From positions 9,487 through 73,486 of the forward strand of contig CAWINK010000014.1 of NCBI GenBank assembly GCA_963837445.1: 64,000 bases of DNA, written 5' to 3'. A program made the translations under genes and the position numbers. Shown in pieces: positions 43,188-57,845 of the stretch (position 1 is its first letter; each line of letters starts with the position of its first letter). The notes beneath the pieces are model-generated. The model saw only the letters and a list, made by a program, of their open reading frames with translations, was not told the DNA's origin and ran no database searches. This DNA is from an uncultured Thermoleophilaceae bacterium. Its GTDB lineage: Bacteria; Actinomycetota; Thermoleophilia; Solirubrobacterales; Thermoleophilaceae.

Positions 43188-43670
43188 ATGAGCGAAGCGA
43201 AAAGCGAAGACACGAGAGACAACGAATCCGAGCAGGAACGGCTCGATCGCAACCTCGAGCAGCTTCTCGGCGAGTTGCGCGTTGCGCTGCCGGGGGTCCA
43301 GGTGCTGTTCGCGTTCCTGCTCGTCGTTCCGTTCAACCAGCGCTTCGCGGACATCACGAGCTTCCAGCAGACCGTCTACTTCGTGACCCTCCTGTGCGCC
43401 ACCGCGGCCACCGCGTGCCTGATCGCGCCGACCGCCCACCACCGCATCGAGTTCCGCCAGCAGGACAAGAAGCGCATCGTCATGGGCGGCAACCGGCTGA
43501 CCATCGTCGGCCTGGCGCTGCTCGCGTCCGCCATGACCGGGGCGATCACGCTGATCACCGACTTCCTCTACAGCTCGACGACGGTGACCGTGACTGCGGG
43601 ACTCGTTGCACTCATGTTCCTGATCCTCTGGTACGCGATACCGATCCGGCGCCTGATCGCGCAGGACTAG
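43188..43670 (+). CDS. DUF6328-like membrane protein
   Basis: LEQLLGELRVALPGVQVLFAFLLVVPFNQRF matches the family signature. 160 aa. Confidence 0.65.
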   Translation: MSEAKSEDTRDNESEQERLDRNLEQLLGELRVALPGVQVLFAFLLVVPFNQRFADITSFQQTVYFVTLLCATAATACLIAPTAHHRIEFRQQDKKRIVMGGNRLTIVGLALLASAMTGAITLITDFLYSSTTVTVTAGLVALMFLILWYAIPIRRLIAQD

Positions 43671-44434
43671 CGGAGCGAGCGCGCCAGCTCCAGCGCGCGC
43701 TCGCGGCTGAAGGCTCCCTCCAGGCGCACCAACAGGTCGCCGCGCTCCAGGAGCAGCACGTTGCCCGCGAGGCGCAGCTCGCTCTCGGCGAAGTCGGAGT
43801 CGGGCGGGCGGTAGAAGAACAGGTGCGGGGCGCCCTCGATCCAGACGGCGCGGTCGCCGTCCACGCTCAGGCGTTCGATGCGCGTGGTCTCGCCCGCGAT
43901 CTTGCCGAGGTAATCCGGCGCGAGGTCGCCGCGGAACTCGCCGACCAGGAGCCCCAGGCCCGTGCTGCTTGCCTCGGGCAGCCCGCTTCTCGGCCGGTAG
44001 GCGAGCGACAGCTCGCCGCCGGCCACTCGCGGGTTCACGAAGACGGCGGTCGGGCGTCCGGCTGCGCCCGGCACGAGCGGCTCGAAGCCGAGCGACTCGC
44101 GGGCGCGGTCGATCGTGGTGCGGGTGCCGAGCTCGAGTGGGCGCAGCTCTGGGACCTGCGGCAGCTCGTCGCGGCGCTCCACGGTCGCGCCCTGGAGCCC
44201 GAAGAACTCGAGCACCGCGTCGCGCACGTCGGGCACGGCGGCCACGACGCCGCCGGCCAGCAGGAGAAGCGAGGCGAGTGCGATGGCCAGGGACCTGCGG
44301 AAGACGATCGGACGCCTGCGGCGCGCGGGCGCGGGCGACTCAAGGCGCTGGCGAACGCCCGAGACGAGGTCGGGGGTCTCCGGCCAGTCGAACTCGCGAC
44401 CGAGCTGGGTGAGGCGCTGCTCGAGCTCGCTCAT
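43667..44434 (-). CDS. putative anti-sigma / regulatory single-pass membrane protein
   Basis: MSELEQRLTQLGREFDWPETPDL... with one TM (LAIALASLLLLAGGVVAAV). The ATG overlaps the stop of the upstream ECF sigma gene (ATGA). Confidence 0.55.
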   Translation of the reverse strand: MSELEQRLTQLGREFDWPETPDLVSGVRQRLESPAPARRRRPIVFRRSLAIALASLLLLAGGVVAAVPDVRDAVLEFFGLQGATVERRDELPQVPELRPLELGTRTTIDRARESLGFEPLVPGAAGRPTAVFVNPRVAGGELSLAYRPRSGLPEASSTGLGLLVGEFRGDLAPDYLGKIAGETTRIERLSVDGDRAVWIEGAPHLFFYRPPDSDFAESELRLAGNVLLLERGDLLVRLEGAFSRERALELARSLR

Positions 44435-44991
44435 GCCTCCACCTCCCCCAGCTCCAGTCGCAGGCGCTCGAGCGCGCGTGCGAGACGTGACTTGACGGTG
44501 CCGCGCGGGCAGTCGAGCGCCGCGGCGGTCTCCTCCTCGCTCAGTTCGAGCAGGTAGCGGCAGGCGATCGCCTCGCGGGCCGGCTCCGGGAGGCGCTCGA
44601 TCGCGGCGAGGAGCTGGTCGCGTTGCTCGGAGTCGAGGAGCGCCGCCTCGGGCGACGGGACCGCGTCGTCCGGGCGGCGCTCCTCGACCACGCGCTGCGC
44701 GATGCGCACATGCCGTCCGGCTCCGCGCACGCGGTTGCGGGCCTCGTTCGCCACGATCGCGAGCAGCCAGGGCCGGAACGGCGAGCCCTCGCGGAACCGC
44801 GACAGCGCGGCGTGCGCCTTCACGAAGCCGTCCTGAGCGGCCTCCTCCGCGTCCGCCTCCGAGCGAGTGATCACCCACGCAGTCCGGAACGCAATCGCCT
44901 GATGCCGTCTCACGATCTCCTCATAGGCATTCAGCTCACCGCGCTTTGCGCGCGCGATCAGCTCCGCTTCCTGTGGTGGCCGGTCCTCCAC
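44431..44991 (-). CDS. ECF-family RNA polymerase sigma factor
   Basis: AYEEIVRRHQAIAFRTAWVITRSEADAEEAAQDGFVKA (region 2) and REAIACRYLLELSEEETAAALDCPRGTVKSRLARALERL (region 4). GTG start at 44989-44991. Confidence 0.85.
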   Translation of the reverse strand: MEDRPPQEAELIARAKRGELNAYEEIVRRHQAIAFRTAWVITRSEADAEEAAQDGFVKAHAALSRFREGSPFRPWLLAIVANEARNRVRGAGRHVRIAQRVVEERRPDDAVPSPEAALLDSEQRDQLLAAIERLPEPAREAIACRYLLELSEEETAAALDCPRGTVKSRLARALERLRLELGEVEA

Positions 44992-45039
44992 CGTGCCCTT
45001 AGTACAACGTGCGCGGCGGACCGGTTCCGGAGCCCCCGT

Positions 45040-46257
45040 ATGCTTTCCCGGCTCGCCGGACCCGCGGACGCCGTGACCACGCAACTCATCGACTCGCTGC
45101 GAATCGAGAGGGAAATCCTCTGGGTGCGGCCCTGCTCGGAGTTCGGAAGCCGCTACCTGGCCGACGACTTCTGGGTCGCCTACGACGAGCGGGTGGACCT
45201 GGACACCGTGAGCGAGGCCGTGGCACTGATGCCGTTCGTGCTCAGCATCGCCCCGGTGGCGTGGGCCTCGGGAGACCACTGGACCGTGCCGGAGCTCGAC
45301 GCTGTGCAGGCCGCCTCGCTCCCCGCCGCGCAAGCGACACTGCGTCGGTGGTATCCGCGCCTCCCGTGGGACGGCGAGCTCCTGGCCGAGCGGGTGACCG
45401 AGATGCCCGCTCGCGGCGGAGGAGCGGATGTGATCGTCTTCAGCGGCGGGCTCGACTCCACCTACAGCGCGCTCTCCGAGCCACCCGGCCGGGCGCTGCT
45501 GCTCCTGCGCGGCCTCGACGTGGCGCTCGACAACGGCCCGGGCTGGACGCGCGTCCGGCGCGAGGCGCAGGCGCTCGCGGAGCGCGCGGGACACACGCTC
45601 GTGACCGCGGAGACGAGCCTTCGGCGCCACCTCCGGCGCGACGTGGTCGACAGTCTCCACGGACGGGACGGCGGCTGGTGGGGACAGGTGCAGCACGGGC
45701 TGGCGCTCGCGGGACTGGCCATACCCGTGGCGGCCAGCTCCGGCGCGCGCAGGGTGCTCATTCCGGCCACCCTCTCGCGGGACAGCGCGCCGCCGCTCGG
45801 CTCGGCCCCGGAGCTCGACGAGAACGCACGCTGGAGCGGCGGCGAGGTGGTGCATCACGGGTTCGAGCTCACGCGCCACCAGAAGCTCCAATGGATTCTC
45901 GGCCGCTGCGACGAGATCGGCCCCGTCTTCCTGCGCGTTTGCTACTCCGCCCCGCACGGCGCCGGCGACAACTGCATGCAGTGCGAGAAGTGCCTGCGAA
46001 CCGCCGTAGCGGTGATGATCGAGGGACGCGACCCGTTGCCCTTCGGCTTTCCGCTCGCCCCGCGCACGATCGAGCGGAGGTTTCGGGACGGTTTCGACAA
46101 CGGCACCTTCGAGGACATGGCGGCCACTCGGCCGCTCTGGGCGCAGCTTCGCGCCCGCGCCGGTGAGCAGGCGGGGCTGCTCTCCCCCGGCTTCCGGGAC
46201 TGGCTCCTCGCGGATACGCGCGGCGCTTTGGCTCCAAACGTGGCGCCGGTCCCATGA
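45040..46257 (+). CDS. QueC-like PP-loop ATPase with a ~130-aa N-terminal extension
   Basis: The PP-loop VIVFSGGLDSTYS is at residues 131-143. About 165 aa later comes the Cys cluster CYSAPHGAGDNCMQCEKCLRT (C-x10-C-x2-C-x2-C), like the QueC zinc site. ATG at 45040 within the tracked ORF. Confidence 0.6.
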   Translation: MLSRLAGPADAVTTQLIDSLRIEREILWVRPCSEFGSRYLADDFWVAYDERVDLDTVSEAVALMPFVLSIAPVAWASGDHWTVPELDAVQAASLPAAQATLRRWYPRLPWDGELLAERVTEMPARGGGADVIVFSGGLDSTYSALSEPPGRALLLLRGLDVALDNGPGWTRVRREAQALAERAGHTLVTAETSLRRHLRRDVVDSLHGRDGGWWGQVQHGLALAGLAIPVAASSGARRVLIPATLSRDSAPPLGSAPELDENARWSGGEVVHHGFELTRHQKLQWILGRCDEIGPVFLRVCYSAPHGAGDNCMQCEKCLRTAVAVMIEGRDPLPFGFPLAPRTIERRFRDGFDNGTFEDMAATRPLWAQLRARAGEQAGLLSPGFRDWLLADTRGALAPNVAPVP

Positions 46258-47444
46258 GAGTCGTCGTCACGAACTGCGTGTCTATGAACGGCGGAGACGC
46301 CGCGATCCTCCAGGGGATCGACGAAATCCTCCGCCACGCGCTGGGGCCCGGGCTCGAGATGACCGTTCACGACGACTATCCGGCGAGCGCCGCGCACCAC
46401 GTGCCGTTCGACGTCCACCCGCAGCTCCAGTCGCTCGCTGGGCGCGCACGCTCGCGGCGCGCGCTGGAGCGGCAACTGGACCCGGGCGAGGGACGAGCGC
46501 TCCTGGACCGCTATGCCTCCGCGGACCTGATCGTGAGCACGGGAGGCACCTACCTCACGGACAACTACGACGTGGCTCCGCGCATCCGGGAGTTGGAGCT
46601 GGCTGCCGCGCTGCGGCGCCCGCTCGTCCTCTTCACCCAGTCCATCGGCCCGCTCTGGCGCCGAAGTACGCGGCGCGCGCTGCGGCGCGGGCTCTCAGGC
46701 GCACGCCTGGTGCTCGTGCGCGACGAGTCCTCGCGCGAGGAGCTCGCCCGCGCTCGGGTCCGGGGACCCCGAACCGCGCTTGCAGCAGACGCCGCGTTCG
46801 CGCTCGCCAGCCCGGACGCGCTCGCCGAGGCCTGCGTTCCGCGGCCAGCGGCCGAGCGCCCCGAGGTCTCCATTTCGGTCAGGGCGTGGAGCCATTTTCC
46901 GAACGGCGACGGCCGGGTGCGGCTCGAGCGCTACCTCGAAGCGATCGCGGGGCTCGTGCGCCATCTGGTCGTTCGCCGGGGCGCGCGCGTCACGTTCATC
47001 TCCACCTGCCAGGGCGTGCCCTCCTACCCGCACGACGACTCGGTCGTGGCGGACACGATCGCGGCCCGCCTCCCCGGCTCCGTGCTCGCCCACGTGCGGG
47101 TGGACCGCGATTTCCACGACCCCCGTGAACTGGTGGCCCGGCTGGGCGCCTCGGACCTGGTGGTGGCCACTCGGATGCATGCGGCGATCCTCGCGCTCGC
47201 GGGTGGGGCCCCGATCCTGCCGATCGCCTACGAACAGAAGATGGTCGGCCTCGCCGGGCAGCTCGGCCTTCAGCACGCGCTGCACGACATGGCGAGCATC
47301 TCGACGCGCGCGCTCTGCGCCAGCGCCGACGAGCTGCTCGAGAGCTCCGGCGCGCTGCGCCCGGCGCTGTTTGCCCGGGTGGAGCAGCAACGACTGAGCG
47401 CGCTCGCATCCGGCGAGCTCCTGCGAGAGGCACTGGCAGCTTGA
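46254..47444 (+). CDS. polysaccharide pyruvyl transferase family protein
   Basis: NCVSMNGGDAAILQGI...LIVSTGGTYLTDNY...LVVATRMHAAILALAGGAPILPIAYEQK. 4-nt overlaps with both neighbours. Confidence 0.8.
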   Translation: MRVVVTNCVSMNGGDAAILQGIDEILRHALGPGLEMTVHDDYPASAAHHVPFDVHPQLQSLAGRARSRRALERQLDPGEGRALLDRYASADLIVSTGGTYLTDNYDVAPRIRELELAAALRRPLVLFTQSIGPLWRRSTRRALRRGLSGARLVLVRDESSREELARARVRGPRTALAADAAFALASPDALAEACVPRPAAERPEVSISVRAWSHFPNGDGRVRLERYLEAIAGLVRHLVVRRGARVTFISTCQGVPSYPHDDSVVADTIAARLPGSVLAHVRVDRDFHDPRELVARLGASDLVVATRMHAAILALAGGAPILPIAYEQKMVGLAGQLGLQHALHDMASISTRALCASADELLESSGALRPALFARVEQQRLSALASGELLREALAA

Positions 47445-49315
47445 TCGTCGATCGCCTCGAGGAGAGGGAGGTGAACGGCCTGCTCGAGCGCTCGGCGCGC
47501 ATCCGCTGGAACGGCGGCGAGTTCCGGCTGCGCCTGGCGGTGCCTCCCGAGCTGGCGCCGGCGTCGCTCGACGCGTCGCCGTTCATGTCCGCCACGCTCC
47601 TCCCCGCAATGGCATTCCACGAGGACCTCGTAATCGACGGGCCGGTCTCCCCGCTCCTGTTTCGCCAGACCGAGGCGATCCAGCGCACCTATCACGCCTG
47701 GGACCGCGGCCTGAGGCGCGGTGCTGTGCAGGTGGCGGAGGAACGCGCGCCGGAGCCCGCGGAGGGGCGACTGGCCTCCTTCTTCTCACGCGGGCTGGAC
47801 TCGTTCTTCACGGCTCTCCACCCGCGTCCGACCGGGCAACCGGAGCTGCTCGTCTTCTGCTCGACGATGGACCCGTTCGAGGACGAGCGCGCGCGGGCTG
47901 AACAGCTGAGGCGCACGCGCGCGGCTGCCGAGGCGATCGAGCTCCCGCTCGCAGACGTGCGCCTGAACCTGCGCGAGCTGACCGAGCGGATCATCGACTA
48001 CGTGGACCTCCATGGCGCGGGCCTCGCGGCGCTCGCGCAATCCGTCTCGGGTGGGCTTCGGACGGTCGTGGTGGCCTCGAGCCACAGCGTGTCGGAGTTC
48101 AACGCGTGGGGCTCGAGCCCGCTCCTCGACCCGCTCTTCTCCACCGAATCCGTACAGGTCGAGCACGACTCCGTGGCATTCGGCCGCCTCGACAAGATCG
48201 CCTGGCTGGCGCGCGAGCGGCCGGACGTGCTGGCACTGGCGGAGGTCTGCCAGCACCAGCACGCACCGGGCAACTGCGGGCGCTGCCACAAGTGCCTGCT
48301 CACGGCGGTCCAGCTCGTGGCGGTGGGCGCGCCCGGAGCGATCCCGGGCCTGCCGGCGCGGCCCGATCCCGAGCTGCTCAGCACGGACCGCCCCCAGGGA
48401 CTCGGCCGGCGGCTCCAGTTTGTGGCCGCGCATCGAGCCCTCCCTGACACGCCCGAGCACGCCGAGCTGAGGGACGCCCTGGTGCACTCGCTGCGGCGGG
48501 TCGCTCGGCCGGGCCCAGCGGACTGGCTTCGAGCCGCGCGGGAGTGGCGGCGCGGCGTCCGCCCGCGCCTCAACCCGGTCCACCCGCTTCAGGGAAGCGT
48601 CTTCTCCTCCCAGTGGGTCGGCCTGCTGATCGAGCTGCTCCGCTACGGCCGGCCATTGCACCGCCACGGTGGGCTCGAGCCGCCGGGGCCGGCCGCACCC
48701 TGGGAGGAGCCCGGGAGCGCGCGCACTGGACTCGTGCGCGGCCTCGATCTCGGGGCGGGCCGGCACGTCTACGCCGTGGGGGCCGCTCCCAGGGGCCAGA
48801 CCTTGGGCGAGCTCGGGGCGCTCGAGCGCTCGGAGCAGGCGGGCACGCGTCCGGTGTGGCTCACCGCGGACCGGCGCGTGTCGCTCAGCGCCGCGCCGCC
48901 CCCGTGGGCGAGGCCCGCGTGGACGGTCCGCCTGCGCTGGGCGCTGGCGCCGCTCGGATGGCGCGAGTCCGGCGCTCGCATGCGCCTCGCGACGCTCGGC
49001 GGACGCCTGGCGGAGCTGGCACGCCGCCGGCAGGCGCCGCTCGCCACCTCACCGGGATTCGAGCCCAAGACTCCGGCAGGCTGGATCCACGTGGAGTCCG
49101 GACCTGGCCGGGTGCCGCTCTACGCCGCCACGCACGCGGCCACGGGCGACCAGCTGCTCACCCGCGACCCCGGCGAGGCCACCGACATGGGCTTCGGCCC
49201 GGCGGAGCTGCTCGGCTACCTCGCGGCGGAGGCACCGGTCACCGGCAGCCTCGGGATGCACAGGCTCGACATCCCGTGGGCGTCACGCCTCGGCCGGCGG
49301 GCGCGGGCGATCTAA
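47441..49315 (+). CDS. QueC-like paralog with a degenerate PP-loop, plus a C-terminal ~190-aa module of unknown function
   Basis: FFSRGLDSFFTAL stands in place of SGGxDS. The Cys cluster CQHQHAPGNCGRCHKCLLT is C-x8-C-x2-C-x2-C. The C-terminal region 48725-49300 is homologous to 52088-52648 of the GT4 gene. Confidence 0.55.
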   Translation: MIVDRLEEREVNGLLERSARIRWNGGEFRLRLAVPPELAPASLDASPFMSATLLPAMAFHEDLVIDGPVSPLLFRQTEAIQRTYHAWDRGLRRGAVQVAEERAPEPAEGRLASFFSRGLDSFFTALHPRPTGQPELLVFCSTMDPFEDERARAEQLRRTRAAAEAIELPLADVRLNLRELTERIIDYVDLHGAGLAALAQSVSGGLRTVVVASSHSVSEFNAWGSSPLLDPLFSTESVQVEHDSVAFGRLDKIAWLARERPDVLALAEVCQHQHAPGNCGRCHKCLLTAVQLVAVGAPGAIPGLPARPDPELLSTDRPQGLGRRLQFVAAHRALPDTPEHAELRDALVHSLRRVARPGPADWLRAAREWRRGVRPRLNPVHPLQGSVFSSQWVGLLIELLRYGRPLHRHGGLEPPGPAAPWEEPGSARTGLVRGLDLGAGRHVYAVGAAPRGQTLGELGALERSEQAGTRPVWLTADRRVSLSAAPPPWARPAWTVRLRWALAPLGWRESGARMRLATLGGRLAELARRRQAPLATSPGFEPKTPAGWIHVESGPGRVPLYAATHAATGDQLLTRDPGEATDMGFGPAELLGYLAAEAPVTGSLGMHRLDIPWASRLGRRARAI

Positions 49316-50470: not shown

Positions 50471-52699
50471 CTATGCCGCTTGAAGAGGACGGCCTTCGAG
50501 CGACCGGAGCAGCTCGATGAGCTGCACGGAATTGCGCGCCGGATCGTGGCGCTCACGCACCACCTCGGCACCCGCGCGTGCAACGGAATTCAGCTCGCCG
50601 GCATCCATCGAAAGGACGCGGTCGAGCGTCGAGGCGAGCTCACCGAGATCGTTCGGCTCGAACATGAAGCCCGTCCGTCCTTCCTCGATCAGCTCGGGGA
50701 GACCGAAGATCCGCGAGGCGATAACCGGCTTCTCGAAGGCCATGGCCTCGATCACCGAGAGCGGCAAGCACTCGACGTCGGACGCCAGCGCGAACACGTC
50801 AGAGACCAGGTGCCACGCATACGCATCCTCGGTGATCGGAACGATCCGCACGCGGGACTCCAGAGACATGGCCGCGACATAGTCGGCGATTGCGTCCGGG
50901 TACGGGCCGGGCGTGGCGCCGACCAGCAGAAGCTGGGCGTCGGGGTGGTCCGCGGCCACCCTCGCAAATGCCTGCGTGAGGAGCGCCTGGCCCTTCCGCG
51001 ATCCCAGGGTGGCCAGGCAGAGAATCACTCGCGCGTCCAGCGGTATGTCGCGTGCGCGGCGCTCATTCGAGGCTGCCGACGAGCGTCGGAACTCGTCGAT
51101 GGCTTCGAGCTCGATCCCGTACGGCAACGTGACCGCCCGATCGGCATCCACGTACGGCTCGTACAGCCGGCGCGTTGCGTCCGCGGCAAAGATTGTGGCG
51201 TTGGCAGCACCCAGCGCGTGCTCGATGCGCTGAAAGACATACGCGTGGTCGGGACTCCAACCGTGCCCGACGGTCCACCAAGTCTTCGGTTCAAAGCTCT
51301 CGTGGAGAGCCCAGGCGACCGGGATGCCGAGCCGCGTTGCGAGGTCCACACCGATGAAGCAGTCGAGCGTGCTCACGAATGCGACCGAGTGACCGCCGGG
51401 CTCACACCAGGCCCTCAGCTCCTCGATGCGTCCCTCGTACTCCGCTGGTCCGGTCTCCGGGTAGGCCGACGTGACGTGGACCTCGATGCCGGCACGCTCG
51501 AGCCGCTCGCGCCACGGGCCGTCCCTGAACGACACAACCGTGCAGTCGGGGAATCCCGCGCGCTGTAGCCGCAGCACCTGGTCGACGAAGTAGCGCTGGG
51601 CGCCGCCGTAGTCGAGGCGGTGAGTGAAAGCGAGCAGGCCGCCCGAGCCCCGGTCCCGGCGGGGCGGGCGGCGGTCCCCGGGGCGCAGGTCGTCGCGACC
51701 CCCGGCCGACAGTTGCGGCTGACTGCGCGTGAGCCGAACCTCGTTCGACTCGAGGACGAGCGTGTGGCCGGCCATGCTGGTCACGAGTACCGCGATCGTC
51801 ACAACCTCTGGCGCCTGGCGCAGATGCCGAGCGGACGGCACGAACTCGAATCCGGCGAGTACAGCGTCCGGTGCGCCTGCCACCGGCTGATGCGCCAGGA
51901 GGTCCCCGCGCGGCAGCGCGAGTCGCGCCTGGCCGGCGAGCTCGCCGTCGATGAACACCTCGACCCGCCGGACATGGTCCTCGAGGGCCACGGCCCAACC
52001 AGCGATGCGCAGGGTCTCAGCGGCGGTCGAGGTGCCTGGCGCCGGCAGCTCGAGGCCTCCCACAAGGCGCCCGGCCTGGCTCCCCCGCCCCAGTCCGAAC
52101 TCCCGCGCCCACGGGACGCCCGTTGCACTCACCCCAAGGAGCCCGGTCACCGGAGCGGTCGCACGCACATGCCCGAGTGCGGTGGTTTCGACGTACCCAA
52201 GCGCCTCAGGCTCCTCCGGGTCGGTGGTCAGAAGCTGATCCCCGCTCACGGGATGGAGCGCCGAGAAGAGTGGCCGCGTCACGGCGTCCGGATCGCGGAA
52301 GAGGTATCCGTCTGGCGGTCCGCCGTACGCACCGGGTCCCCCTTCTCGCCTCGGCCGAAGCTCGAGCAGGCGTCTCGCGACCGCGCGTACGCGTGTGCCC
52401 TTGCCGTGCGCCGCCCAGCGGATCGGCCCGAGCGCGTAGGCGACCCCCGCGGACGCGGAGGTACGCCCCAGCTCGGCGTTGTAGGCGTCCGTGACGAGGA
52501 GTCCGTGGGCAGTGCGCCAGACGGGGATCTCACCCGCCGACCCGTCCGACGCGAGACCGCCGAGCTCGCCCACGAGAACACCCCTGGGGAGCCGACCAAG
52601 GCCGTACAGATGCCGCCGCGCCGCCGGGTCGATCGCTCGGACGAGCCCTATGTACGGACCTCGCGGATCTATGCGGCGGCACGATAAGGGATCGGCAAT
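50471..52699 (-). CDS. multidomain glycosyltransferase: N-terminal unknown module, central beta domain, C-terminal GT4 (group 1) domain; start unresolved
   Basis: GT4 blocks: AFTHRLDYGGAQRY...LATLGSRKGQ...LASDVECLPLSVIEAMAFEKPVIASRIFGLPELIEEGRTGFMFEP. The tracked ORF extends to 53296, but that part is antisense to the sulfotransferase gene. There is no in-frame ATG/GTG/TTG between 52711 and 52574. Confidence 0.7.
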   Translation of the reverse strand: MADPLSCRRIDPRGPYIGLVRAIDPAARRHLYGLGRLPRGVLVGELGGLASDGSAGEIPVWRTAHGLLVTDAYNAELGRTSASAGVAYALGPIRWAAHGKGTRVRAVARRLLELRPRREGGPGAYGGPPDGYLFRDPDAVTRPLFSALHPVSGDQLLTTDPEEPEALGYVETTALGHVRATAPVTGLLGVSATGVPWAREFGLGRGSQAGRLVGGLELPAPGTSTAAETLRIAGWAVALEDHVRRVEVFIDGELAGQARLALPRGDLLAHQPVAGAPDAVLAGFEFVPSARHLRQAPEVVTIAVLVTSMAGHTLVLESNEVRLTRSQPQLSAGGRDDLRPGDRRPPRRDRGSGGLLAFTHRLDYGGAQRYFVDQVLRLQRAGFPDCTVVSFRDGPWRERLERAGIEVHVTSAYPETGPAEYEGRIEELRAWCEPGGHSVAFVSTLDCFIGVDLATRLGIPVAWALHESFEPKTWWTVGHGWSPDHAYVFQRIEHALGAANATIFAADATRRLYEPYVDADRAVTLPYGIELEAIDEFRRSSAASNERRARDIPLDARVILCLATLGSRKGQALLTQAFARVAADHPDAQLLLVGATPGPYPDAIADYVAAMSLESRVRIVPITEDAYAWHLVSDVFALASDVECLPLSVIEAMAFEKPVIASRIFGLPELIEEGRTGFMFEPNDLGELASTLDRVLSMDAGELNSVARAGAEVVRERHDPARNSVQLIELLRSLEGRPLQAA

Positions 52700-52711
52700 A
52701 GCATTCGCCGC

Positions 52712-53749
52712 ATGCGGATCTGCGTCGCCGGGATGCACCGCAGCGGGACCTCGATCACGGCGTACATCCTCAGCCAGCTCGGCGTGGACCTCGGCCCAGA
52801 AGAGACGCTGCTCGGCCCGGATGTCGTGGACAATCCGCTCGGGTACTGGGAACAGCGCGGCATCATCGAGGTGAATGACCTTGTGCTGGAGCGGCTGGGC
52901 GGCCCCTGGACCGACCCTCCGCGGCTGCGTCCCGGCTGGGCGGCCTCGGCGGATCTCGATGACCTGCGCGACCGCGCCCACGCGCTGCTGCGGAGCAGCT
53001 TCGGCGACCGGCCGTCGGGCTGGAAGGACCCGCGCTGCAGCCTCACGCTGCCGTTCTGGCTCTCGGTGGAACCGTCCTTGCGGGTGGTGATCTGCGTGCG
53101 CGATCCGCTCGAGGTGGCCGCGTCCTGGGCGCGCCGGGGGCCCGGCTTCGATGCGCCCTTCGCGCTCGAGCTGTGGATGGAGCACACGGCACGGGCGCTG
53201 ATCGACTCGGAGCACATTCCGCGATTGGTCGTGCACCACGAGGACCTCTTTCGCGACCTCGAGGCCCAGGTCCGCCGACTCGCCTCGTTCGTGCACGCCG
53301 AGCCGGTGAGCGCGGACACGGTGGCCGCGATTCGCGGCTTCGTCAAAGAGGACCTGTGGCGCAGCCGCACCGGCATCCAGGACCGCCGGCGGGTGCCGCC
53401 GGAGGTCGCGCGGCTATACAGCGCGCTGCGCACCCACGACCCGTCGCGGACGAGCGGCGTGGACGGGCTCACGCCACTCGCGCGGCAGCTGCTCGCGAGC
53501 CGCCACAGGACCCAGAATCGCGACCTCGTCGGCTACCGCTGGCCCCGGCTCCGCGAGCGCGCGCGCCGGCGAGCTCTCAAGCCGCTTCTCTGGTGGGTGC
53601 GCGACCTGCTGTTCGCCGGCCGCAACAAGGCCGCGTCGGTTCGCGACGCTCACGCCCGCGTCAGCGGTCCGGCCGCGAGGGTGGAGCGTCGAATCGGCGT
53701 CATGATCGGAGCGCTCGATCGCCGCCGACAGCAGTGGCGCGTGGAGTAG
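52712..53749 (+). CDS. sulfotransferase family protein
   Basis: MRICVAGMHRSGTSITAYIL (5-prime-PSB-like P-loop) and VICVRDPLEVAASW (3-prime-PB-like). 345 aa. Confidence 0.7.
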   Translation: MRICVAGMHRSGTSITAYILSQLGVDLGPEETLLGPDVVDNPLGYWEQRGIIEVNDLVLERLGGPWTDPPRLRPGWAASADLDDLRDRAHALLRSSFGDRPSGWKDPRCSLTLPFWLSVEPSLRVVICVRDPLEVAASWARRGPGFDAPFALELWMEHTARALIDSEHIPRLVVHHEDLFRDLEAQVRRLASFVHAEPVSADTVAAIRGFVKEDLWRSRTGIQDRRRVPPEVARLYSALRTHDPSRTSGVDGLTPLARQLLASRHRTQNRDLVGYRWPRLRERARRRALKPLLWWVRDLLFAGRNKAASVRDAHARVSGPAARVERRIGVMIGALDRRRQQWRVE

Positions 53750-54941
53750 GCACGTGCGCACGGTCTGCGAGCCAGCGGCGAAGCTCCTCCGAAGCGCGCT
53801 CGGGCTGGTGCTCGCGCTCGATCGTGCGCGATGCCTGTCTGCCGAGCCGAGCGGCCAGCGCGCTGTCGCGGCGCAGACGGGATAACGCCTCCGCTAGCGC
53901 ATCGGGATCGTCGGGGGGCACCAGGAGGCCGTTCTCACCGTCGCGCACGAGCTCGGGGATGCCCACGATGCTCGTGCTGACCACCGGCAGCCCTCGGCCC
54001 ATCGCCTCGATCAGGACCACCGGAAGCCCGTCACGGTCTCCGTCGGTGGCGATCCGGCACGGCACCGCAACCGCCGAGCAGTGCGCGTACGCCTCGCTCA
54101 CCTCGTCGGGGCCGCACACGCCCCTGAAGACCACGCGGTCCTCCACGCCCAGCGACGTGGCGAGCTCTCGGAGCTCAGGCAGCAGCGGGCCGTCGCCGAT
54201 CACGTTCAGCGCGAACGGGTGGCCATTCGACGCCGCCAGCGCGCACGCGTGCACAAGCGAATCGATGCCCTTCTTCGGAACCAGCCTTGCCACCGCCAGC
54301 ACCGGCGCGTCCGGAACGGGATCGACCGGCTCGGCGGCCGGGGCGACGAGCGCCAGCCGCCGCACGTCGACCCCGGGGGCGCGTGCGCGGATCTCCTCGG
54401 CGTTGTAGTGCGTGACCGTGGCCACGCCCGCCGAGCCGGCGAGCCGGCGCGCGAGGTGCGGTGCATTGAACCCACTCCAGATGTCGTTGCCGTGGCAGAA
54501 GACCGTGAACGGGATGCCGCTCAGCTCCGAGGCGTCCTGCGCGTACTCGGCCGAGTAGTACGCGAAGTGAACGTGCAGGAGGCCCGCGCCCTCGCTCGCC
54601 GCCCTTGCGGCAATCAGGCCCGCCCGGAGGAAGTGGCGAAAGCGCCGCTCGGCCCGCGCGCGTCGAGCCGCACGCAGCCAGGCGCGCGGGCGCCGAGCCG
54701 CGAGCGGACCGTGGGCGCGAAGGATCCGGGCCAGCCTGGGCTCGTCGGGCACGCGCCGCACCCTCGCCCGGAGCCCGGCGAGCCCAGGATCGCGCGGCTC
54801 GTCGAGGGTGTCCTCGAGCGTGTCGACGGCCACGCTCCACCCCGACCGCTCCAGTTCGAGCATCTCCCTGAGGACGAACGTCTCGCTGAGCTTGGGAAAG
54901 CGAACGAGCACGTAGTGGACGCGCGGCGCCACGGGCGGCAT
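53700..54941 (-). CDS. glycosyltransferase family 4 (WcaL-like)
   Basis: VHYVLVRFPKLSETFVLREM...VARLVPKKGID...DGLPVVLIEAMGRGLPVVSTSIVGIPELVRDGENGLLVPP. Confidence 0.85.
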   Translation of the reverse strand: MPPVAPRVHYVLVRFPKLSETFVLREMLELERSGWSVAVDTLEDTLDEPRDPGLAGLRARVRRVPDEPRLARILRAHGPLAARRPRAWLRAARRARAERRFRHFLRAGLIAARAASEGAGLLHVHFAYYSAEYAQDASELSGIPFTVFCHGNDIWSGFNAPHLARRLAGSAGVATVTHYNAEEIRARAPGVDVRRLALVAPAAEPVDPVPDAPVLAVARLVPKKGIDSLVHACALAASNGHPFALNVIGDGPLLPELRELATSLGVEDRVVFRGVCGPDEVSEAYAHCSAVAVPCRIATDGDRDGLPVVLIEAMGRGLPVVSTSIVGIPELVRDGENGLLVPPDDPDALAEALSRLRRDSALAARLGRQASRTIEREHQPERASEELRRWLADRAHVPTPRATAVGGDRALRS

Positions 54942-54964: not shown

Positions 54965-55750
54965 ATGGATCCCGCAGCCGTGAGAACCTCCGTGCTCATG
55001 CCCGCCTACGAGGCGGAGGCGACCCTGCGCGAGGCTGTCGAGAGCGCGCTCGCGCAGACGGTCGGCGACCTCGAGCTGCTGGTGATCGACGACGCGTCCC
55101 GGATCCCGGTCCGGGACGTGCTCGCCGGCATCGCAGACCCACGCCTTCGCATCATCAGGCGAAGCCACAACGGCGGCCCCGGGGCCGCGCGCAACACGGG
55201 CTTGAGGCACGCCCGCGCGCCGCTCGTGTCACAGCTCGACGCCGACGACATGTGGGAGCCCGACTACCTCGAGCACGTGCTGCCGCATTTCGAGGACCCC
55301 GCAATCGGCCTCGTCTACGCGAATGCCGTGATCCTCGGCCACCCGACGGGTCACGACACCTACATCTTCGACCCCGAGCCACACCCGATCGACCGCTTTC
55401 CAAAGCTCGCCGAGCAGAACCCGGTGCCGGCGCTCACGGCCACGATGCGCGCCCACGCGGTGCGCGCCGTGGGCGGCTATGCGCGCTGGCTCCAGATGGC
55501 TCAGGACTACCACCTGTACCTGAAGCTGGCCGCCGCAGGCTGGCGCTTCCACTACGTGGACCGCAAGCTCGCCCGCTACCGCTGGCCGGAGCCCACCCGC
55601 GGCCTGTCCTACGACGACCGCCGCCGTGAGCTCTACGAACTGCCCATGTGGACCGCCTTCGCGCTGCGCCATCCGCTCACCCCAGGACCGAAGCGGCAGG
55701 TGCGCATGCGGCTGCGCCGTGAGGTCGAACGCCTACGATTCGGCCGGTGA
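54965..55750 (+). CDS. glycosyltransferase family 2
   Basis: SVLMPAYEAEATLREAVESALAQTVGDLELLVIDDAS...GPGAARNTGL...QLDADDMW. Confidence 0.85.
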   Translation: MDPAAVRTSVLMPAYEAEATLREAVESALAQTVGDLELLVIDDASRIPVRDVLAGIADPRLRIIRRSHNGGPGAARNTGLRHARAPLVSQLDADDMWEPDYLEHVLPHFEDPAIGLVYANAVILGHPTGHDTYIFDPEPHPIDRFPKLAEQNPVPALTATMRAHAVRAVGGYARWLQMAQDYHLYLKLAAAGWRFHYVDRKLARYRWPEPTRGLSYDDRRRELYELPMWTAFALRHPLTPGPKRQVRMRLRREVERLRFGR

Positions 55751-56994
55751 CGAGCTCCACAGCCAGCACGCCGGCGGTCGCGGTCGACGACGTCTCGAAG
55801 GCCTTCCGCATCCCGCACGAGCGCGTCTCGACGCTGAAGGAGCGGGCTCTTCACCCGTTCCGGCGCTCTTCGCATGAGCACTTCGACGCTCTGCGTGGAG
55901 TCTCGTTCGCCGTCGAGAAGGGCGAGTTCTTCGGCATCGTCGGCCGCAACGGGTCGGGCAAGAGCACGCTGCTCAAGTGCATGGCGGGGATCTACCGCGC
56001 CGACAGCGGCGCCATCTACGTGAACGGCCGCGTGTCCACCTTCATCGAGCTCGGGGTGGGCTTCAACCCGGAGCTGGCCGCCCGCGACAACGTGCTGATC
56101 AACGGCGTGATGCTCGGGCTCTCCCCGCGCGAGGCGCGCGAGCGCTTCGACCGCGTCATCGACTTCGCGGAGCTCAGGGAGTTCGAGGAGCTCAAGCTGA
56201 AGAACTACTCGTCCGGCATGCAGGTCCGGCTCGCGTTCTCCGTGATGGTCCAGGTGGACGCCGACATCCTCCTGATCGACGAGGTGCTCGCCGTCGGCGA
56301 CGTGAGCTTCCAGCAGAAGTGCTTCGACGTGTTCAACAAGCTGCGCGACGAGGGAAAGACGATCCTGTTCGTGACCCACGACATGAGCGCGGTGCGCCGC
56401 TTCTGCCACCGCGCCGTTCTGCTGGAGCGTGGGAAGGTCGTCCAGATCGGGCAGCCGGCCGAGGTGTCCGAGGCCTACGTGGACCTCAACTTCGGCGAGG
56501 GCGCCGACGTGACGGCGCCATCGGAGGGCCGCCGCAGCGGGGACGGCACGGCGGAGATCCTCGAGGCGTGGTGGGAGGACGACCAGGGCGAGCGCCAGAC
56601 CGTGCTCCACCAGGGTCGCCCGTGCTCCTTCCACGCGCGGGTGCGGTTCACGACCGAGGTCGACGACCCGGCGATCGCGACGGTCTTCGAGAACGAGCAG
56701 CACCAGCCGCTCATGGCCACCTCGACCGACTGGAAGGGCGAGAGCACAGGCCACTTCGGAGCGGGCGAGGAGGTCGAGTTCTCGGTTCAGCTCGAGATGG
56801 CGTTCGCGCCGGGCCGCGTGTACGCGTCGCCGTGGGTGGCCCAGGGCGGCCACCGCGTGATGGACCGGCGCCCGGAGCTGGCCTCCGTGGTCGTGGCCGG
56901 GACCCACGTGTCCGGCGGCCTCGTGGACCTGCCGCACGACGTGCAGCTCAAGGCCGGCGACCGCAGCTTCCAGGGCCAGGGAGGCGCGGCGTGA
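55747..56994 (+). CDS. polysaccharide/teichoic-acid-type ABC exporter ATP-binding protein (Wzt/TagH-like) with a C-terminal extra domain
   Basis: Walker A GRNGSGKSTLLK, signature YSSGMQVRLAF, Walker B ILLIDEVLAVGD, plus about 160 aa of C-terminal beta-rich domain. Confidence 0.9.
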   Translation: MTSSTASTPAVAVDDVSKAFRIPHERVSTLKERALHPFRRSSHEHFDALRGVSFAVEKGEFFGIVGRNGSGKSTLLKCMAGIYRADSGAIYVNGRVSTFIELGVGFNPELAARDNVLINGVMLGLSPREARERFDRVIDFAELREFEELKLKNYSSGMQVRLAFSVMVQVDADILLIDEVLAVGDVSFQQKCFDVFNKLRDEGKTILFVTHDMSAVRRFCHRAVLLERGKVVQIGQPAEVSEAYVDLNFGEGADVTAPSEGRRSGDGTAEILEAWWEDDQGERQTVLHQGRPCSFHARVRFTTEVDDPAIATVFENEQHQPLMATSTDWKGESTGHFGAGEEVEFSVQLEMAFAPGRVYASPWVAQGGHRVMDRRPELASVVVAGTHVSGGLVDLPHDVQLKAGDRSFQGQGGAA

Positions 56995-57845
56995 GCCAGC
57001 TCGACGTGGCGGCGCTGGGGCGCCCGATCAAGGGCCCGTCGGCCCTCGGCACCGACCTTCGGCGCCTGTTGCACCTGTCGGTGACGCTCGCGGTGATGGA
57101 GTTCAAGCTGCGCTTCTTCGGCTCCGTGCTGGGCTACCTGTGGCAGCTCATGCGCCCGCTGCTCCTGTTCGGCGTGCTGTACGTGGTGTTCACCGAGTTC
57201 GTGCAGCTCGGCGCGGGCGTGCGCTTCTACCCGGCCGTCCTGCTCACAGGCATCGTCCTGTTCACGTTCTTCTCGGACGCCACGAGCAGGTCGGTGACCG
57301 CCGTGGCGGACCGGGAGAGCCTGGTGCGAAAGATCGAGTTCCCGCGCCTCGTGGTGCCGCTGGCGGTGCTCCTGATCTCGCTGTTCAACCTGATCCTGAA
57401 CCTGCTCGCCGTGCTCGTGTTCGTAATCGCCACGGGCGTGGAGCCGCGTCTCGAGTGGCTGGCCCTGCCGCTGCTGCTGCTGCCGCTCGGCCTCTTCGCC
57501 GGCGGCCTCGCGATGCTGCTTTCCGCGCTGTATGTGCGCTTCCGCGACGTGCAGCCGATCTGGGAGGTCATGCTTCAGGTCCTCTTCTACGGATCACCGA
57601 TCCTCTACGTTCTCGAGATTCTCCCGACCGAGCAGCTCCAGCACCTGGTGGTGTGGTTCAACCCGATCGCGACGATCCTCGTGCAGTCTCGCCACAGCCT
57701 GATCGACGAAACGGCGCCCAACGTGTGGGACGCCGCCGGCGGCATGGTGTACCTCGCGATCCCGGGTGCGATCGTGCTCGGCGTGCTCGTGCTCGGCTTC
57801 TGGGTGTTCAACCGCGAGGCGCCGCGGATCGCGGAGGAGCTGTGA
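56991..57845 (+). CDS. ABC-2 type exporter permease (Wzm/TagG-like)
   Basis: GTG at 56991 overlaps the upstream stop. Six hydrophobic helices. MEFKLRFFGSVLGYLWQLMRPLL is the typical N-terminal block. Confidence 0.85.
   Translation: MSQLDVAALGRPIKGPSALGTDLRRLLHLSVTLAVMEFKLRFFGSVLGYLWQLMRPLLLFGVLYVVFTEFVQLGAGVRFYPAVLLTGIVLFTFFSDATSRSVTAVADRESLVRKIEFPRLVVPLAVLLISLFNLILNLLAVLVFVIATGVEPRLEWLALPLLLLPLGLFAGGLAMLLSALYVRFRDVQPIWEVMLQVLFYGSPILYVLEILPTEQLQHLVVWFNPIATILVQSRHSLIDETAPNVWDAAGGMVYLAIPGAIVLGVLVLGFWVFNREAPRIAEEL

What the first reader, a model, noticed from the sequence alone, without database searches (positions are those of the whole stretch)
45040..49315. Two QueC-like PP-loop paralogs sandwich a pyruvyl transferase in a tightly coupled operon
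Both flanking proteins carry a QueC-type arrangement: a PP-loop followed roughly 150-165 residues later by a four-Cys cluster.
- Protein 1: SGGLDS and C-x10-C-x2-C-x2-C.
- Protein 2: SRGLDS (degenerate) and C-x8-C-x2-C-x2-C, the spacing I recall for the QueC zinc site.

Each also has an N-terminal extension of more than 100 aa. The three genes overlap by 4 nt each.

QueC chemistry is ATP-dependent conversion of a carboxylate to an amide or nitrile. The pyruvyl transferase installs a carboxylate-bearing ketal. A plausible but unproven function is therefore amidation, or further modification, of a pyruvylated or uronic-acid glycan. I am not aware of this being a described pathway. A catalytic plus pseudo-enzyme pair is also suggested.
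Basis: partly seen in the sequence, partly recalled or inferred. Interest (0 to 1): 0.7.

Follow-up and report, generated by a model that had tools for sequence, protein, structure and literature searches.

The report
Unnamed QueC-like enzymes partnering pyruvyl transferases
The two genes flanking the pyruvyl transferase belong to a very large, unnamed and unstudied family of ATP-using enzymes, distantly related to QueC, that sits beside or is fused to sugar-pyruvylating enzymes in bacteria and archaea, which points to a surface-sugar modification nobody has described.

Summary
Three genes with 4-nt overlaps encode P1 (405 aa), a pyruvyl transferase (PF04230) and P3 (624 aa). P1 and P3 are paralogs, each with a PP-loop followed by a four-Cys cluster.

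Both motifs are conserved in homologs. No Pfam, NCBIfam or PADLOC model reaches its cut-off. QueC and DUF6395 hits are sub-threshold, and the best solved-structure match is QatC (E 1e-4).

AlphaFold models are confident. Their only structural matches are weak hits to PP-loop ATPases, and B. subtilis QueC superposes on P3 at TM 0.65.

The family is large: 10,111 50%-identity clusters. It includes the Bacillus cereus group, where NCBI calls it "peptidase", plus Bacteroidota and archaea.

A pyruvyl transferase lies within 8 kb in 48 of 80 genomes and directly adjacent in 37. Natural fusions to pyruvyl transferase, GT2 and GT4 domains exist.

The most likely role is ATP-dependent activation of a glycan carboxylate, probably the pyruvate ketal, and its conversion to an amide. 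This is inferred, not shown.

The "catalytic plus pseudo-enzyme pair" idea is not supported. SRG is the conserved form in P3's clade, and each paralog occurs alone with a pyruvyl transferase elsewhere.

The verdict is a new family in a known superfamily, in an undescribed context.

The parts
45040..46257 (+). P1: 405-aa member, type A, of an unnamed QueC-like PP-loop / Cys-cluster family
   Evidence: ORF and motifs; GC3 0.89; 24 homologs, none with a Pfam domain; AF2 pLDDT 90.5, pTM 0.90; weak Foldseek hits are mostly PP-loop ATPases
45442..45459 (+). P1 PP-loop SGGLDS (aa 135-140)
   Evidence: G136, G137, D139 and S140 invariant and S135 at least 90% conserved in A1
45940..45993 (+). P1 Cys cluster C301-x10-C312-x2-C315-x2-C318, within LRVC...NCxxCEKCLRT
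   Evidence: All four Cys plus N311, E316, K317, L319 and R320 invariant in A1
46254..47444 (+). P2: polysaccharide pyruvyl transferase, 396 aa
   Evidence: PF04230 E = 6.5e-28; below the equivalog cut-offs of WcaK and CsaB; G97, D103, R307 and H309 invariant among nine diverse partner transferases
47441..49315 (+). P3: 624-aa paralog, type B, of the same family with an added C-terminal domain
   Evidence: 30% identity to P1, E = 2e-8; 94 homologs; AF2 pLDDT 88.5, pTM 0.87; Foldseek hits TtuA, beta-lactam synthetase, MnmA and QueC 3bl5 at TMt 0.65
47786..47803 (+). P3 PP-loop variant SRGLDS (aa 116-121)
   Evidence: S116, G118, D120 and S121 invariant; SRG in 85 of 94 relatives
48248..48295 (+). 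P3 Cys cluster C270-x8-C279-x2-C282-x2-C285
   Evidence: All four Cys plus N278 and K284 invariant in A2 and A6; T288 invariant in A2 and at least 90% conserved in A6
48698..49312 (+). P3 C-terminal beta-rich domain (about aa 420-624), unknown function, shared with the neighbouring GT4
   Evidence: 34% identity over 196 aa to the GT4 N-terminus, E = 6e-24; no Pfam hit; also present in P0059 in L087
49328..50458 (-). 376-aa protein with no family assignment, convergent with P3
   Evidence: No Pfam or NCBIfam hit; GC3 0.89
50471..52711 (-). GT4 glycosyltransferase with an N-terminal domain homologous to the P3 C-terminus; true start uncertain, roughly at or below 52711
   Evidence: PF00534 and PF13692; the minus-strand frame stops looking like coding sequence above about 52711; P0187 is a natural fusion of a P3-like domain with this GT4's orthologue
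52712..53749 (+). Sulfotransferase
   Evidence: PF13469 E = 1.1e-8; GC3 0.90
53700..54941 (-). GT4 glycosyltransferase
   Evidence: PF13692 E = 2.6e-34
54965..55750 (+). GT2 glycosyltransferase
   Evidence: PF00535 E = 7.6e-30
55747..56994 (+). Wzt-type ABC ATPase with a C-terminal carbohydrate-binding domain
   Evidence: PF00005 E = 2e-21 and Wzt_C PF14524 E = 1e-17
57000..57845 (+). Wzm-type ABC-2 permease (start approximate)
   Evidence: PF01061 E = 9.5e-16
44431..45000 (-). ECF sigma factor, divergent from P1; a putative anti-sigma gene lies at 43667-44440
   Evidence: Sigma70_r2 and r4_2; the same arrangement sits beside the P1-like gene in L091

Best explanation
P1 and P3 are two anciently diverged paralogs (type A and type B) of a very large, unnamed family of cytoplasmic PP-loop ATP pyrophosphatases. 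Each has an N-terminal accessory domain and a QueC-type four-Cys site, presumed to bind zinc.

The family works inside glycan-assembly gene clusters, as a partner of polysaccharide pyruvyl transferases and glycosyltransferases.

**Proposed mechanism (inferred, not shown).**
1. The glycosyltransferases build the lipid-linked glycan.
2. P2 uses PEP to install a pyruvate ketal, which carries a free carboxylate.
3. The PP-loop enzyme adenylates that carboxylate with ATP, releasing PPi.
4. A nitrogen nucleophile (ammonia or a small amine) displaces AMP, leaving a neutral amide.

In this window the modified glycan would then be exported by a Wzm/Wzt ABC transporter. The Wzt_C module of that transporter reads a terminal cap.

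P1 pairs with the pyruvyl transferase. P3 is additionally tied to the neighbouring GT4.

**Shown:** family membership, motif conservation, fold class, and the genomic and fusion linkage.
**Inferred:** ATP use, the carboxylate substrate, the nucleophile and the product.
For: **PP-loop ATPase identity.**
- S-x-G-x-D-S is conserved.
- AF2 models have pLDDT 90.5 and 88.5.
- Their best Foldseek hits are mostly PP-loop enzymes: ArgG, LarE, NadE, GuaA, MnmA, TtuA, beta-lactam synthetase and QueC at TMt 0.65.

**Resemblance to carboxylate-activating QueC-type enzymes.**
- The Cys cluster has QueC spacing and is invariant (PMC13329287).
- The best PDB profile match is QatC, E = 9.7e-5, covering both the PP-loop and the Cys region.
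- PF06508 is the most frequent sub-threshold Pfam hit: 10 of 28 members, best E = 1.5e-4.
- QueC, Cap9 and, by proposal, QatC adenylate a carboxylate and pass it to NH3 or an amine (PMC13279940).

**Link to pyruvyl transferases.**
- A transferase lies within 8 kb in 48 of 80 GTDB loci and within 300 nt in 37.
- PF04230 is the top neighbour family even in loci my first crude profile missed.
- B. cereus and P. megaterium have the order GT4-GT2-EpsG-GT4-GT4-pyruvyl transferase-PP-Wzx.
- In L003 the order is Wzm-PP-Wzt-pyruvyl transferase-GT2.
- Fusions exist as PP-GT2-PvT, PvT-PP, PP-PP-PvT, PP-PvT-PP and PP-GT4.

**Other points.**
- The operon overlaps by 4 nt at each junction.
- Neither protein shows an obvious N-terminal hydrophobic segment on reading the translations. 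This was not tested with a signal-peptide or membrane-segment predictor.
- One locus places a CN_hydrolase gene directly after the PP-GT2-PvT fusion. In glutamine-dependent NAD synthetase, that type of domain supplies NH3 to the PP-loop domain (established knowledge of NadE).
Against: - No biochemical data exist for any member, and no paper was found.
- A 2019 review of glycan pyruvylation mentions no amidated pyruvate ketal.
- About 40% of sampled loci have no pyruvyl transferase within 8 kb, so the substrate may be broader or different.
- No amine-donor gene is consistently adjacent: CN_hydrolase appeared once in 91 loci, and Asn-synthase-like genes in about 12.
- Similarity to QueC and QatC is remote: all Foldseek E-values are 0.025 or higher, and hhalign covers the PP-loop only.
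- The GTDB sample was seeded with one motif, NCxxCEKCLR, and is biased towards type A.
- I did not measure the background frequency of pyruvyl transferases in glycan loci.
Confidence: 0.4

Rival explanations
1. Same enzyme class, different carbonyl. The family activates another glycan or sugar-nucleotide group, such as a uronic-acid carboxylate (giving a uronamide or an amino-acid amide) or an N-acetyl carbonyl (giving an acetamidino group). Under this reading the pyruvyl transferase is only a frequent co-resident of the same clusters.
For: 32 of 80 loci have no pyruvyl transferase within 8 kb. UDP-glucose/ManNAc dehydrogenases are among the recurrent neighbours: 4 of 140 neighbour ORFs, and also L001. 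PP-loop enzymes are known to activate ureido and amide carbonyls as well as carboxylates (established knowledge of ArgG, GuaA and PseA-type amidotransferases).
Against: Direct fusion to pyruvyl transferase domains in several domain orders, and immediate adjacency in 37 of 80 loci, are hard to explain by co-residence alone. No hit to the N-acetyl sugar amidotransferase model or any other NCBIfam model at E up to 0.1.
Confidence: 0.2
2. Non-catalytic or regulatory partner. The proteins bind ATP or a metal but serve as scaffolds or specificity subunits for the pyruvyl transferase and glycosyltransferase complex. This rival includes the first reader's version, in which P1 is catalytic and P3 is a pseudo-enzyme in a heterodimer.
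For: 20 of the 150 best representatives carry two tandem copies of the domain. In six of these, only the first half keeps [ST]GGxDS. P3 has Arg at the second PP-loop position. P3 shares an accessory domain with the GT4.
Against: SRG is conserved in 85 of 94 P3 relatives, so it is not recent decay. P3 keeps S116, G118, D120, S121, R249, N278, K284, T288 and all four Cys. The second PP-loop position varies family-wide: SGG, SRG, SAG, SLG and SCG all occur. A P1-type gene occurs with a pyruvyl transferase and no P3 in L091, and a P3-type gene occurs with a pyruvyl transferase and no P1 in L087. Strict conservation of the PP-loop Ser and Asp residues suggests catalysis.
Confidence: 0.15
3. Sulfur-transfer enzyme. 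The Cys cluster holds an Fe-S cluster and the enzyme converts an adenylated carbonyl into a thio-derivative, as TtuA, NcsA and LarE do.
For: TtuA structures are the top Foldseek hits for P3 (E = 0.025-0.06). LarE is among the top hits for P1. Four conserved Cys could ligate an Fe-S cluster.
Against: The spacing C-x8-C-x2-C-x2-C matches the QueC zinc site, not the three-Cys Fe-S sites of LarE and TtuA (PMC13329287). No sulfur-carrier or cysteine-desulfurase genes appeared among the top 25 neighbour families. The Foldseek E-values are too weak to separate PP-loop subfamilies. I know of no thio-modified glycan of this kind (own knowledge).
Confidence: 0.07
4. A QatC/Cap9-like anti-phage component, or a true queuosine-pathway QueC.
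For: QatC is the best PDB profile hit (E = 9.7e-5). One JGI relative is auto-named 7-cyano-7-deazaguanine synthase.
Against: The PADLOC QatC model does not hit P1 or P3, and hits the B. cereus homolog only at E = 0.022. No qatA, qatB or qatD genes were recognised nearby. The only queuosine-pathway family among the listed neighbours is a GTP_cyclohydroI gene about 10 kb from the PP gene at the edge of L003. Most other neighbours are glycan genes. PF06508 is below its cut-off. The QueC motif YxQxHxxE is absent.
Confidence: 0.02

Closest known systems
[quoted passage not shown]
   Same: It has the SGGxDS PP-loop followed by a C(x)8CxxCxxC site at a similar distance. B. subtilis QueC 3bl5 superposes on the P3 core at a target-normalised TM of 0.65 over about 207 columns. 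PF06508 is the commonest sub-threshold Pfam hit. The likely shared chemistry is ATP-dependent carboxylate activation followed by attack of a nitrogen nucleophile.
   Different: All scores are below the Pfam gathering cut-off. hhalign aligns only the PP-loop. The QueC substrate motif YxQxHxxE is absent. There is an extra N-terminal domain of 110-130 aa and a larger C-terminal helical region. The genomic context is glycan assembly, not queD/E/F.
QatC / Cap9 (QueC-family proteins of the qatABCD and type IV CBASS defence systems)
   Same: This is the best solved-structure sequence match, E = 9.7e-5, covering both the PP-loop and the Cys region. The overall layout is similar: an N-terminal extension, the PP-loop at about residue 116-156, and a total length of about 400-465 aa. 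Cap9 shows that the QueC scaffold can join a carboxylate to a macromolecular amine (PMC13279940).
   Different: The PADLOC QatC model does not match P1 or P3. No QatA, QatB or QatD partners are present. QatC has a three-Cys variant, C(x)19CGxCxxRR (PMC13329287), whereas this family has NCxxCxKC. The biological setting differs.
Pfam DUF6395 (PF19932)
   Same: It gives sub-threshold matches over the Cys-cluster region in 8 of 28 members, best E = 1e-3. It is probably a sister group.
   Different: It never reaches its gathering score here. It is itself uncharacterised, and no paper mentions it.
Glycan amidotransferases of the PP-loop class (Asn-synthetase-like WbpS-type; N-acetyl sugar amidotransferases of the PseA/WbuX type)
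   Same: They are ATP-dependent PP-loop enzymes encoded in polysaccharide clusters that turn a carbonyl into an amide or amidine. This is the closest functional analogy (own knowledge).
   Different: P1 and P3 match no NCBIfam or Pfam model of these families at E up to 0.1. This family has no glutaminase domain, and those families lack the QueC-type Cys cluster.

Membership tests
PP-loop ATP pyrophosphatase superfamily | SGGxDS-type pyrophosphate-binding loop after the first strand of a Rossmann-like fold | tested here: met
   P1 has SGGLDS and P3 has SRGLDS. The S, G, D and S positions are invariant in the family alignments.
PP-loop ATP pyrophosphatase superfamily | Fold similar to solved PP-loop enzymes | tested here: met
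   The top Foldseek PDB hits for both models are mostly PP-loop enzymes, although all E-values are 0.025 or higher. QueC reaches TMt 0.65 on P3.
PP-loop ATP pyrophosphatase superfamily | ATP to AMP + PPi activity | not testable with these tools
   This needs an enzyme assay.
QueC (PF06508) | Pfam model above its gathering score (22 bits) | tested here: not met
   P1 scores 8.6 bits, E = 1.6. P3 has no hit. The best among 28 relatives is E = 1.5e-4, still sub-threshold.
QueC (PF06508) | C(x)8CxxCxxC zinc motif | tested here: met
   P3 has the exact spacing and P1 has x10. Spacings of 8 or 9 dominate in the representatives. Metal identity was not tested.
QueC (PF06508) | Substrate-pocket motif YxQxHxxE and other CDG-binding motifs | tested here: not met
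   A regular-expression search finds none in P1 or P3. hhalign aligns only the PP-loop region.
QueC (PF06508) | Genomic association with queD, queE and queF | tested here: not met
   The neighbours are glycosyltransferases, a pyruvyl transferase, a sulfotransferase and an ABC exporter.
QatC (qatABCD defence) | Match to the PADLOC QatC model | tested here: not met
   No hit for P1 or P3 at E up to 1.
QatC (qatABCD defence) | Co-encoded QatA, QatB and QatD | tested here: not met
   The context consists of glycan-assembly genes.
N-acetyl sugar amidotransferase / Asn-synthetase-like glycan amidotransferases | Match to the NCBIfam or Pfam models (TIGR03573, PF00733) | tested here: not met
   No NCBIfam or Pfam hit for P1 or P3 at E up to 0.1.
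Polysaccharide pyruvyl transferase (PF04230), for P2 | Pfam model above its gathering score | tested here: met
   98.9 bits against a cut-off of 25.3. Below the equivalog cut-offs of WcaK and CsaB, so membership is at family level only.
Polysaccharide pyruvyl transferase (PF04230), for P2 | PEP-dependent ketal formation | not testable with these tools
   This needs an assay. G97, D103, R307 and H309 are invariant among nine partner transferases.

The most novel reading that the evidence does not exclude
A widespread, so far unseen chemical modification of bacterial and archaeal surface glycans. The carboxylate of the pyruvate ketal would be activated by ATP and converted into an amide, an amino-acid or amine conjugate, or even, by analogy with the two ATP-dependent steps of QueC, a nitrile. 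In this window P1 and P3 would carry out two distinct or successive steps, producing the terminal cap read by the Wzt carbohydrate-binding module.
Probability: 0.3. Interest if true: 0.8.

Novelty: new variant of a known kind. Interest (0 to 1): 0.62.

Why it matters
Pyruvate ketals give surface glycans their negative charge. They are ligands for SLH-domain proteins, lectins and antibodies. An enzyme that rewrites that carboxylate would change charge, recognition and immunogenicity.

The family is large: 10,111 clusters at 50% identity, 5,720 of them at E of 1e-30 or better. It occurs in tractable organisms such as the Bacillus cereus group, Priestia megaterium and Paenibacillus, and also in gut Bacteroidota, cyanobacteria and archaea.

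It has no Pfam or NCBIfam model above cut-off and is labelled "peptidase" or "hypothetical". Defining it would:
- correct thousands of annotations;
- add a new branch to the QueC-type scaffold, beyond tRNA modification and phage defence;
- give glycan chemists a specific product to look for.

Tried and rejected
1. Pfam and NCBIfam scans of P1 and P3 gave no family at E up to 0.1.
2. Single-sequence PDB searches returned only noise.
3. Foldseek gave no match at E of 0.001 or better for either model. The QatC structures may postdate the library cut-off of April 2026.
4. PADLOC gave no QatC hit for the window proteins.
5. The GTDB scan with the combined alignment A3 failed because no stretch was conserved enough. 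A1 worked, but it biases the sample towards type A.
6. I looked for a consistent nitrogen-donor partner. CN_hydrolase appeared once, Asn-synthase-like genes in about 12 of 91 loci, and no glutaminase fusions in 19 multidomain representatives. No consistent donor was found.
7. A reverse survey from pyruvyl transferases to PP partners was dropped. The transferase alignment has only four invariant columns, too few for a pattern scan.
8. Literature searches for DUF6395, pyruvyl transferase with PP-loop, QueC or 7-cyano-7-deazaguanine synthase found no paper. The pyruvylation review has no mention of amidation.
9. One look-up (P0032) failed on the server side.
10. An upstream extension of P1 (44623-45039) was rejected. 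GC3 favours the minus-strand sigma factor there, and homologs start at the 45040 Met.
11. In one search my P3 C-terminal query was out of frame. It was redone correctly.

Full report
**1. What is in the sequence**

The region holds three co-directional genes.
- P1: 45040-46257, 405 aa.
- P2: 46254-47444, 396 aa.
- P3: 47441-49315, 624 aa, TTG start.

The junctions read ATGA and TTGA, so each overlap is 4 nt. Third-position GC of 0.87-0.91 supports these frames. It also argues against an upstream extension of P1 into the divergent ECF sigma-factor gene. Homologs start at the same residues.

P1 carries SGGLDS at aa 135-140 and C301-x10-C312-x2-C315-x2-C318. P3 carries SRGLDS at aa 116-121 and C270-x8-C279-x2-C282-x2-C285. 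P1 and P3 are paralogs, 30% identical over 251 aa, E = 2e-8. P2 is a clear PF04230 polysaccharide pyruvyl transferase, E = 6.5e-28.

**2. Are the motifs meaningful?**

Yes.
- In the P1 family (17 sequences down to 21% identity), G136, G137, D139, S140, R279, C301, N311, C312, C315, E316, K317 and C318 are invariant.
- In the P3 family, S116, G118, D120, S121, R249, C270, N278, C279, C282, K284, C285 and T288 are invariant.
- A joint alignment keeps G-x-D-S, an Arg, all four Cys, and the Asn, Lys and Thr of NCxxCxKCxxT.
- NCxxCxKC is present in 135 of 137 distant representatives.

The spacing C(x)8CxxCxxC is the published QueC zinc motif (PMC13329287).

**3. Which family?**

None that has a name.
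- Pfam and NCBIfam give no hit for P1 or P3 at E up to 0.1.
- At permissive thresholds, QueC PF06508 is the commonest sub-threshold hit (10 of 28 relatives, best E = 1.5e-4). The uncharacterised DUF6395 comes second (8 of 28). Neither reaches its gathering score.
- A family profile searched against all PDB sequences finds QatC, the QueC-family protein of qatABCD defence, at E = 9.7e-5. The match covers both the PP-loop and the Cys region. Canonical QueC scores only E = 0.4.
- hhalign against E. coli QueC gives 80% probability over the PP-loop only.
- The QueC pocket motif YxQxHxxE is absent.
- The PADLOC QatC model does not match P1 or P3.

AlphaFold2 models are confident: P1 pLDDT 90.5 and pTM 0.90; P3 pLDDT 88.5 and pTM 0.87. 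Foldseek against the PDB finds nothing at E of 0.001 or better. The weak top hits are mostly PP-loop ATP pyrophosphatases: argininosuccinate synthetase, LarE, NAD and GMP synthetases, MnmA, TtuA and beta-lactam synthetase. B. subtilis QueC superposes on the P3 core at a target-normalised TM of 0.65.

So the proteins are a new, strongly diverged family within the PP-loop superfamily. Their nearest relatives are the QueC-type enzymes. The N-terminal 110-130 residues are a conserved, well-folded family domain, not a disordered extension.

**4. Size and spread of the family**

An exhaustive HMMER search with the joint profile finds 10,111 cluster representatives (50% identity) at E of 1e-3 or better, and 5,720 at E of 1e-30 or better.

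A motif-seeded scan of one genome per GTDB species found 527 relatives. They include:
- the Bacillus cereus group, Priestia megaterium, Cohnella and Paenibacillus;
- Flavobacteriia and Muribaculaceae;
- Rhodococcus and Prochlorococcus;
- Bathyarchaeia, Methanobacterium and Halosimplex.

NCBI names the Bacillus proteins "peptidase" or "hypothetical protein". The window's closest relatives are Thermoleophilaceae and Solirubrobacterales MAGs.

**5. Genomic company**

This is the main result.

*Adjacency.*
- An iteratively built pyruvyl transferase profile finds a transferase within the 8-kb flanks in 48 of 80 GTDB loci. In 37 of the 80 the gap is 300 nt or less.
- Independently, PF04230 was the most frequent Pfam family among the two genes on either side in the loci that my first crude profile had missed. 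Wzx flippases, GT4, GT2 and UDP-sugar dehydrogenases followed.

*Example gene orders.*
- B. cereus and P. megaterium: GT4-GT2-EpsG-GT4-GT4-pyruvyl transferase-PP-Wzx.
- A soil metagenome contig: Wzm-PP-Wzt-pyruvyl transferase-GT2.

*Natural fusions.*
- PP-GT2-PvT (P0137, and the 1074-1091-aa P0081, P0083, P0089, P0103 and P0109).
- PvT-PP (P0146, P0035).
- PP-PP-PvT (P0128) and PP-PvT-PP (P0122).
- PP-GT4 (P0139, P0160, P0187).

*Tandem copies.* Twenty of the 150 best representatives have two domains in tandem. Fifteen of 80 loci have two or three paralogs.

*The window itself.* Its cluster is ABC-transporter dependent.
- The Wzt ATPase carries a Wzt_C carbohydrate-binding module (PF14524, E = 1e-17) and is followed by Wzm.
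- GT2, two GT4 genes and a sulfotransferase lie between the operon and the transporter.

**6. P1 versus P3**

P1 is type A, the form common in Bacillota, Bacteroidota and archaea. P3 is type B.

The Arg in SRGLDS is not decay. SRG occurs in 85 of 94 P3 relatives and 31 of 137 representatives, and the position also varies to A, L or C. P3 keeps all other invariant residues.

Each type also occurs without the other.
- A 55%-identical P1 orthologue sits in the order sigma/anti-sigma | P1-pyruvyl transferase | GT4 | GT2-Wzt-Wzm, with no P3.
- A P3 orthologue sits beside a pyruvyl transferase with no P1.

Compared with that simpler cluster, the window carries an extra block: P3, a 376-aa unknown, a GT4 and a sulfotransferase.

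P3 and that GT4 share a roughly 200-aa domain of unknown function, 34% identical, E = 6e-24. P0187 is a natural fusion of a P3-like SRG-type domain with the orthologue of that GT4. P3 is therefore functionally tied to the GT4 as well as to the transferase.

An obligate catalytic plus pseudo-enzyme heterodimer is not supported for this locus. Degenerate second halves do exist in some tandem fusions.

**7. Mechanism**

*Established.* This is a PP-loop family with a QueC-type Cys site, and it is genetically and physically linked to pyruvyl transferases and glycosyltransferases.

*Inferred.* PP-loop enzymes adenylate a carbonyl or carboxylate and pass it to a nucleophile. QueC and Cap9, and QatC by proposal, do this with a carboxylate and NH3 or an amine (PMC13279940). 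The pyruvyl transferase installs exactly such a carboxylate on a lipid-linked sugar in the cytoplasm, where ATP is available.

I therefore consider ATP-dependent amidation, or amine conjugation, of the pyruvate-ketal carboxylate the most likely function (confidence about 0.4).

One locus has a CN_hydrolase gene right after the PP-GT2-PvT fusion. This is the kind of glutaminase that feeds NH3 to NAD synthetase. It is a hint, seen only once.

Several points weaken the case:
- there is no biochemistry for any member;
- amidated pyruvate ketals are not reported in the 2019 review;
- 40% of loci lack a nearby transferase;
- no consistent nitrogen donor was found.

The rival explanations are listed separately with their confidences:
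- another carbonyl substrate (0.20);
- a non-catalytic or pseudo-enzyme partner (0.15);
- sulfur transfer (0.07);
- defence or queuosine biosynthesis (0.02).

**8. Novelty and verdict**

No paper links pyruvyl transferases to PP-loop or QueC-like proteins, or mentions DUF6395. The recent PF06508 survey does not cover this group.

This is a new family, and a new biological use, within a known enzyme superfamily. I rate it "new variant of a known kind".

Interest is 0.62. A specialist in glycan biosynthesis or in QueC-family evolution would find the breadth and the fusion evidence notable, and the hypothesis is directly testable in Bacillus. The chemistry, however, remains an inference.

Noticed in passing
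window 48698-49312 (P3 C-terminus) and about 52100-52711 (-) (GT4 N-terminus): A roughly 200-aa beta-rich domain with no Pfam hit is shared by P3 and the neighbouring GT4 (34% identity, E = 6e-24). It contains a conserved motif of the form 'P-L-[YF]-[SA]-A-x-H-x-x-[ST]-G-D-Q-L-L-T-x-D'. P0187 fuses a P3-like domain to this GT4's orthologue.
   Followed up: partly
window 55747-57845: The Wzt ATPase carries a Wzt_C carbohydrate-binding module and is followed by the Wzm permease. The cluster is therefore an ABC-transporter-dependent glycan pathway, whose export normally depends on recognition of a terminal cap.
   Followed up: partly
window 52712-53749 (+), against the long ORF 50471-53296 (-): A sulfotransferase gene (PF13469) overlaps the upstream part of the 941-aa minus-strand ORF. 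GC3 shows the plus-strand gene is real and the minus ORF is spurious above about 52711, so the glycan may also be sulfated.
   Followed up: partly
window 43667-45000 (-); L091 1271-2729; L089 6513-7740: An ECF sigma factor and a putative anti-sigma gene sit divergently upstream of P1. The same pair sits beside the P1-like gene in L091 and near the fusion gene in L089, which suggests envelope-stress control of the cluster.
   Followed up: no
L091 (metagenome contig, P0015): A simpler version of the cluster reads sigma/anti-sigma | P1-pyruvyl transferase | GT4 | GT2-Wzt-Wzm. It lacks P3, the 376-aa unknown, the large GT4 and the sulfotransferase, which look like an added module in the window.
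   Followed up: partly
L088 12292-13269: A CN_hydrolase (nitrilase-superfamily) gene directly follows a PP-GT2-PvT fusion gene. This is the domain type that supplies ammonia to PP-loop NAD synthetase. It was seen in only one of 91 loci.
   Followed up: partly
window 49328-50458 (-): A 376-aa protein with good coding statistics has no Pfam or NCBIfam match. It lies between P3 and the GT4 and may be an unclassified transferase.
   Followed up: no
representatives P0124, P0125, P0127, P0129, P0133, P0141: In these two-domain fusion proteins of the family, only the first half keeps the [ST]GGxDS PP-loop, while both halves keep NCxxC..C. This fits an asymmetric pseudo-dimer in some lineages.
   Followed up: partly
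L012, L015, L067 (GTDB loci): Three tandem paralogs of the family lie in a row, in Acetomicrobium, a Synergistales MAG and an uncultured bacterium. My first transferase profile detected no pyruvyl transferase in the flanks.
   Followed up: no
Bacillus cereus group and Priestia homologs (P0256-P0285): RefSeq and UniRef name these PP-loop/Cys-cluster proteins "peptidase". Nothing in the sequence or the models supports that name, so it is probably a propagated misannotation.
   Followed up: no
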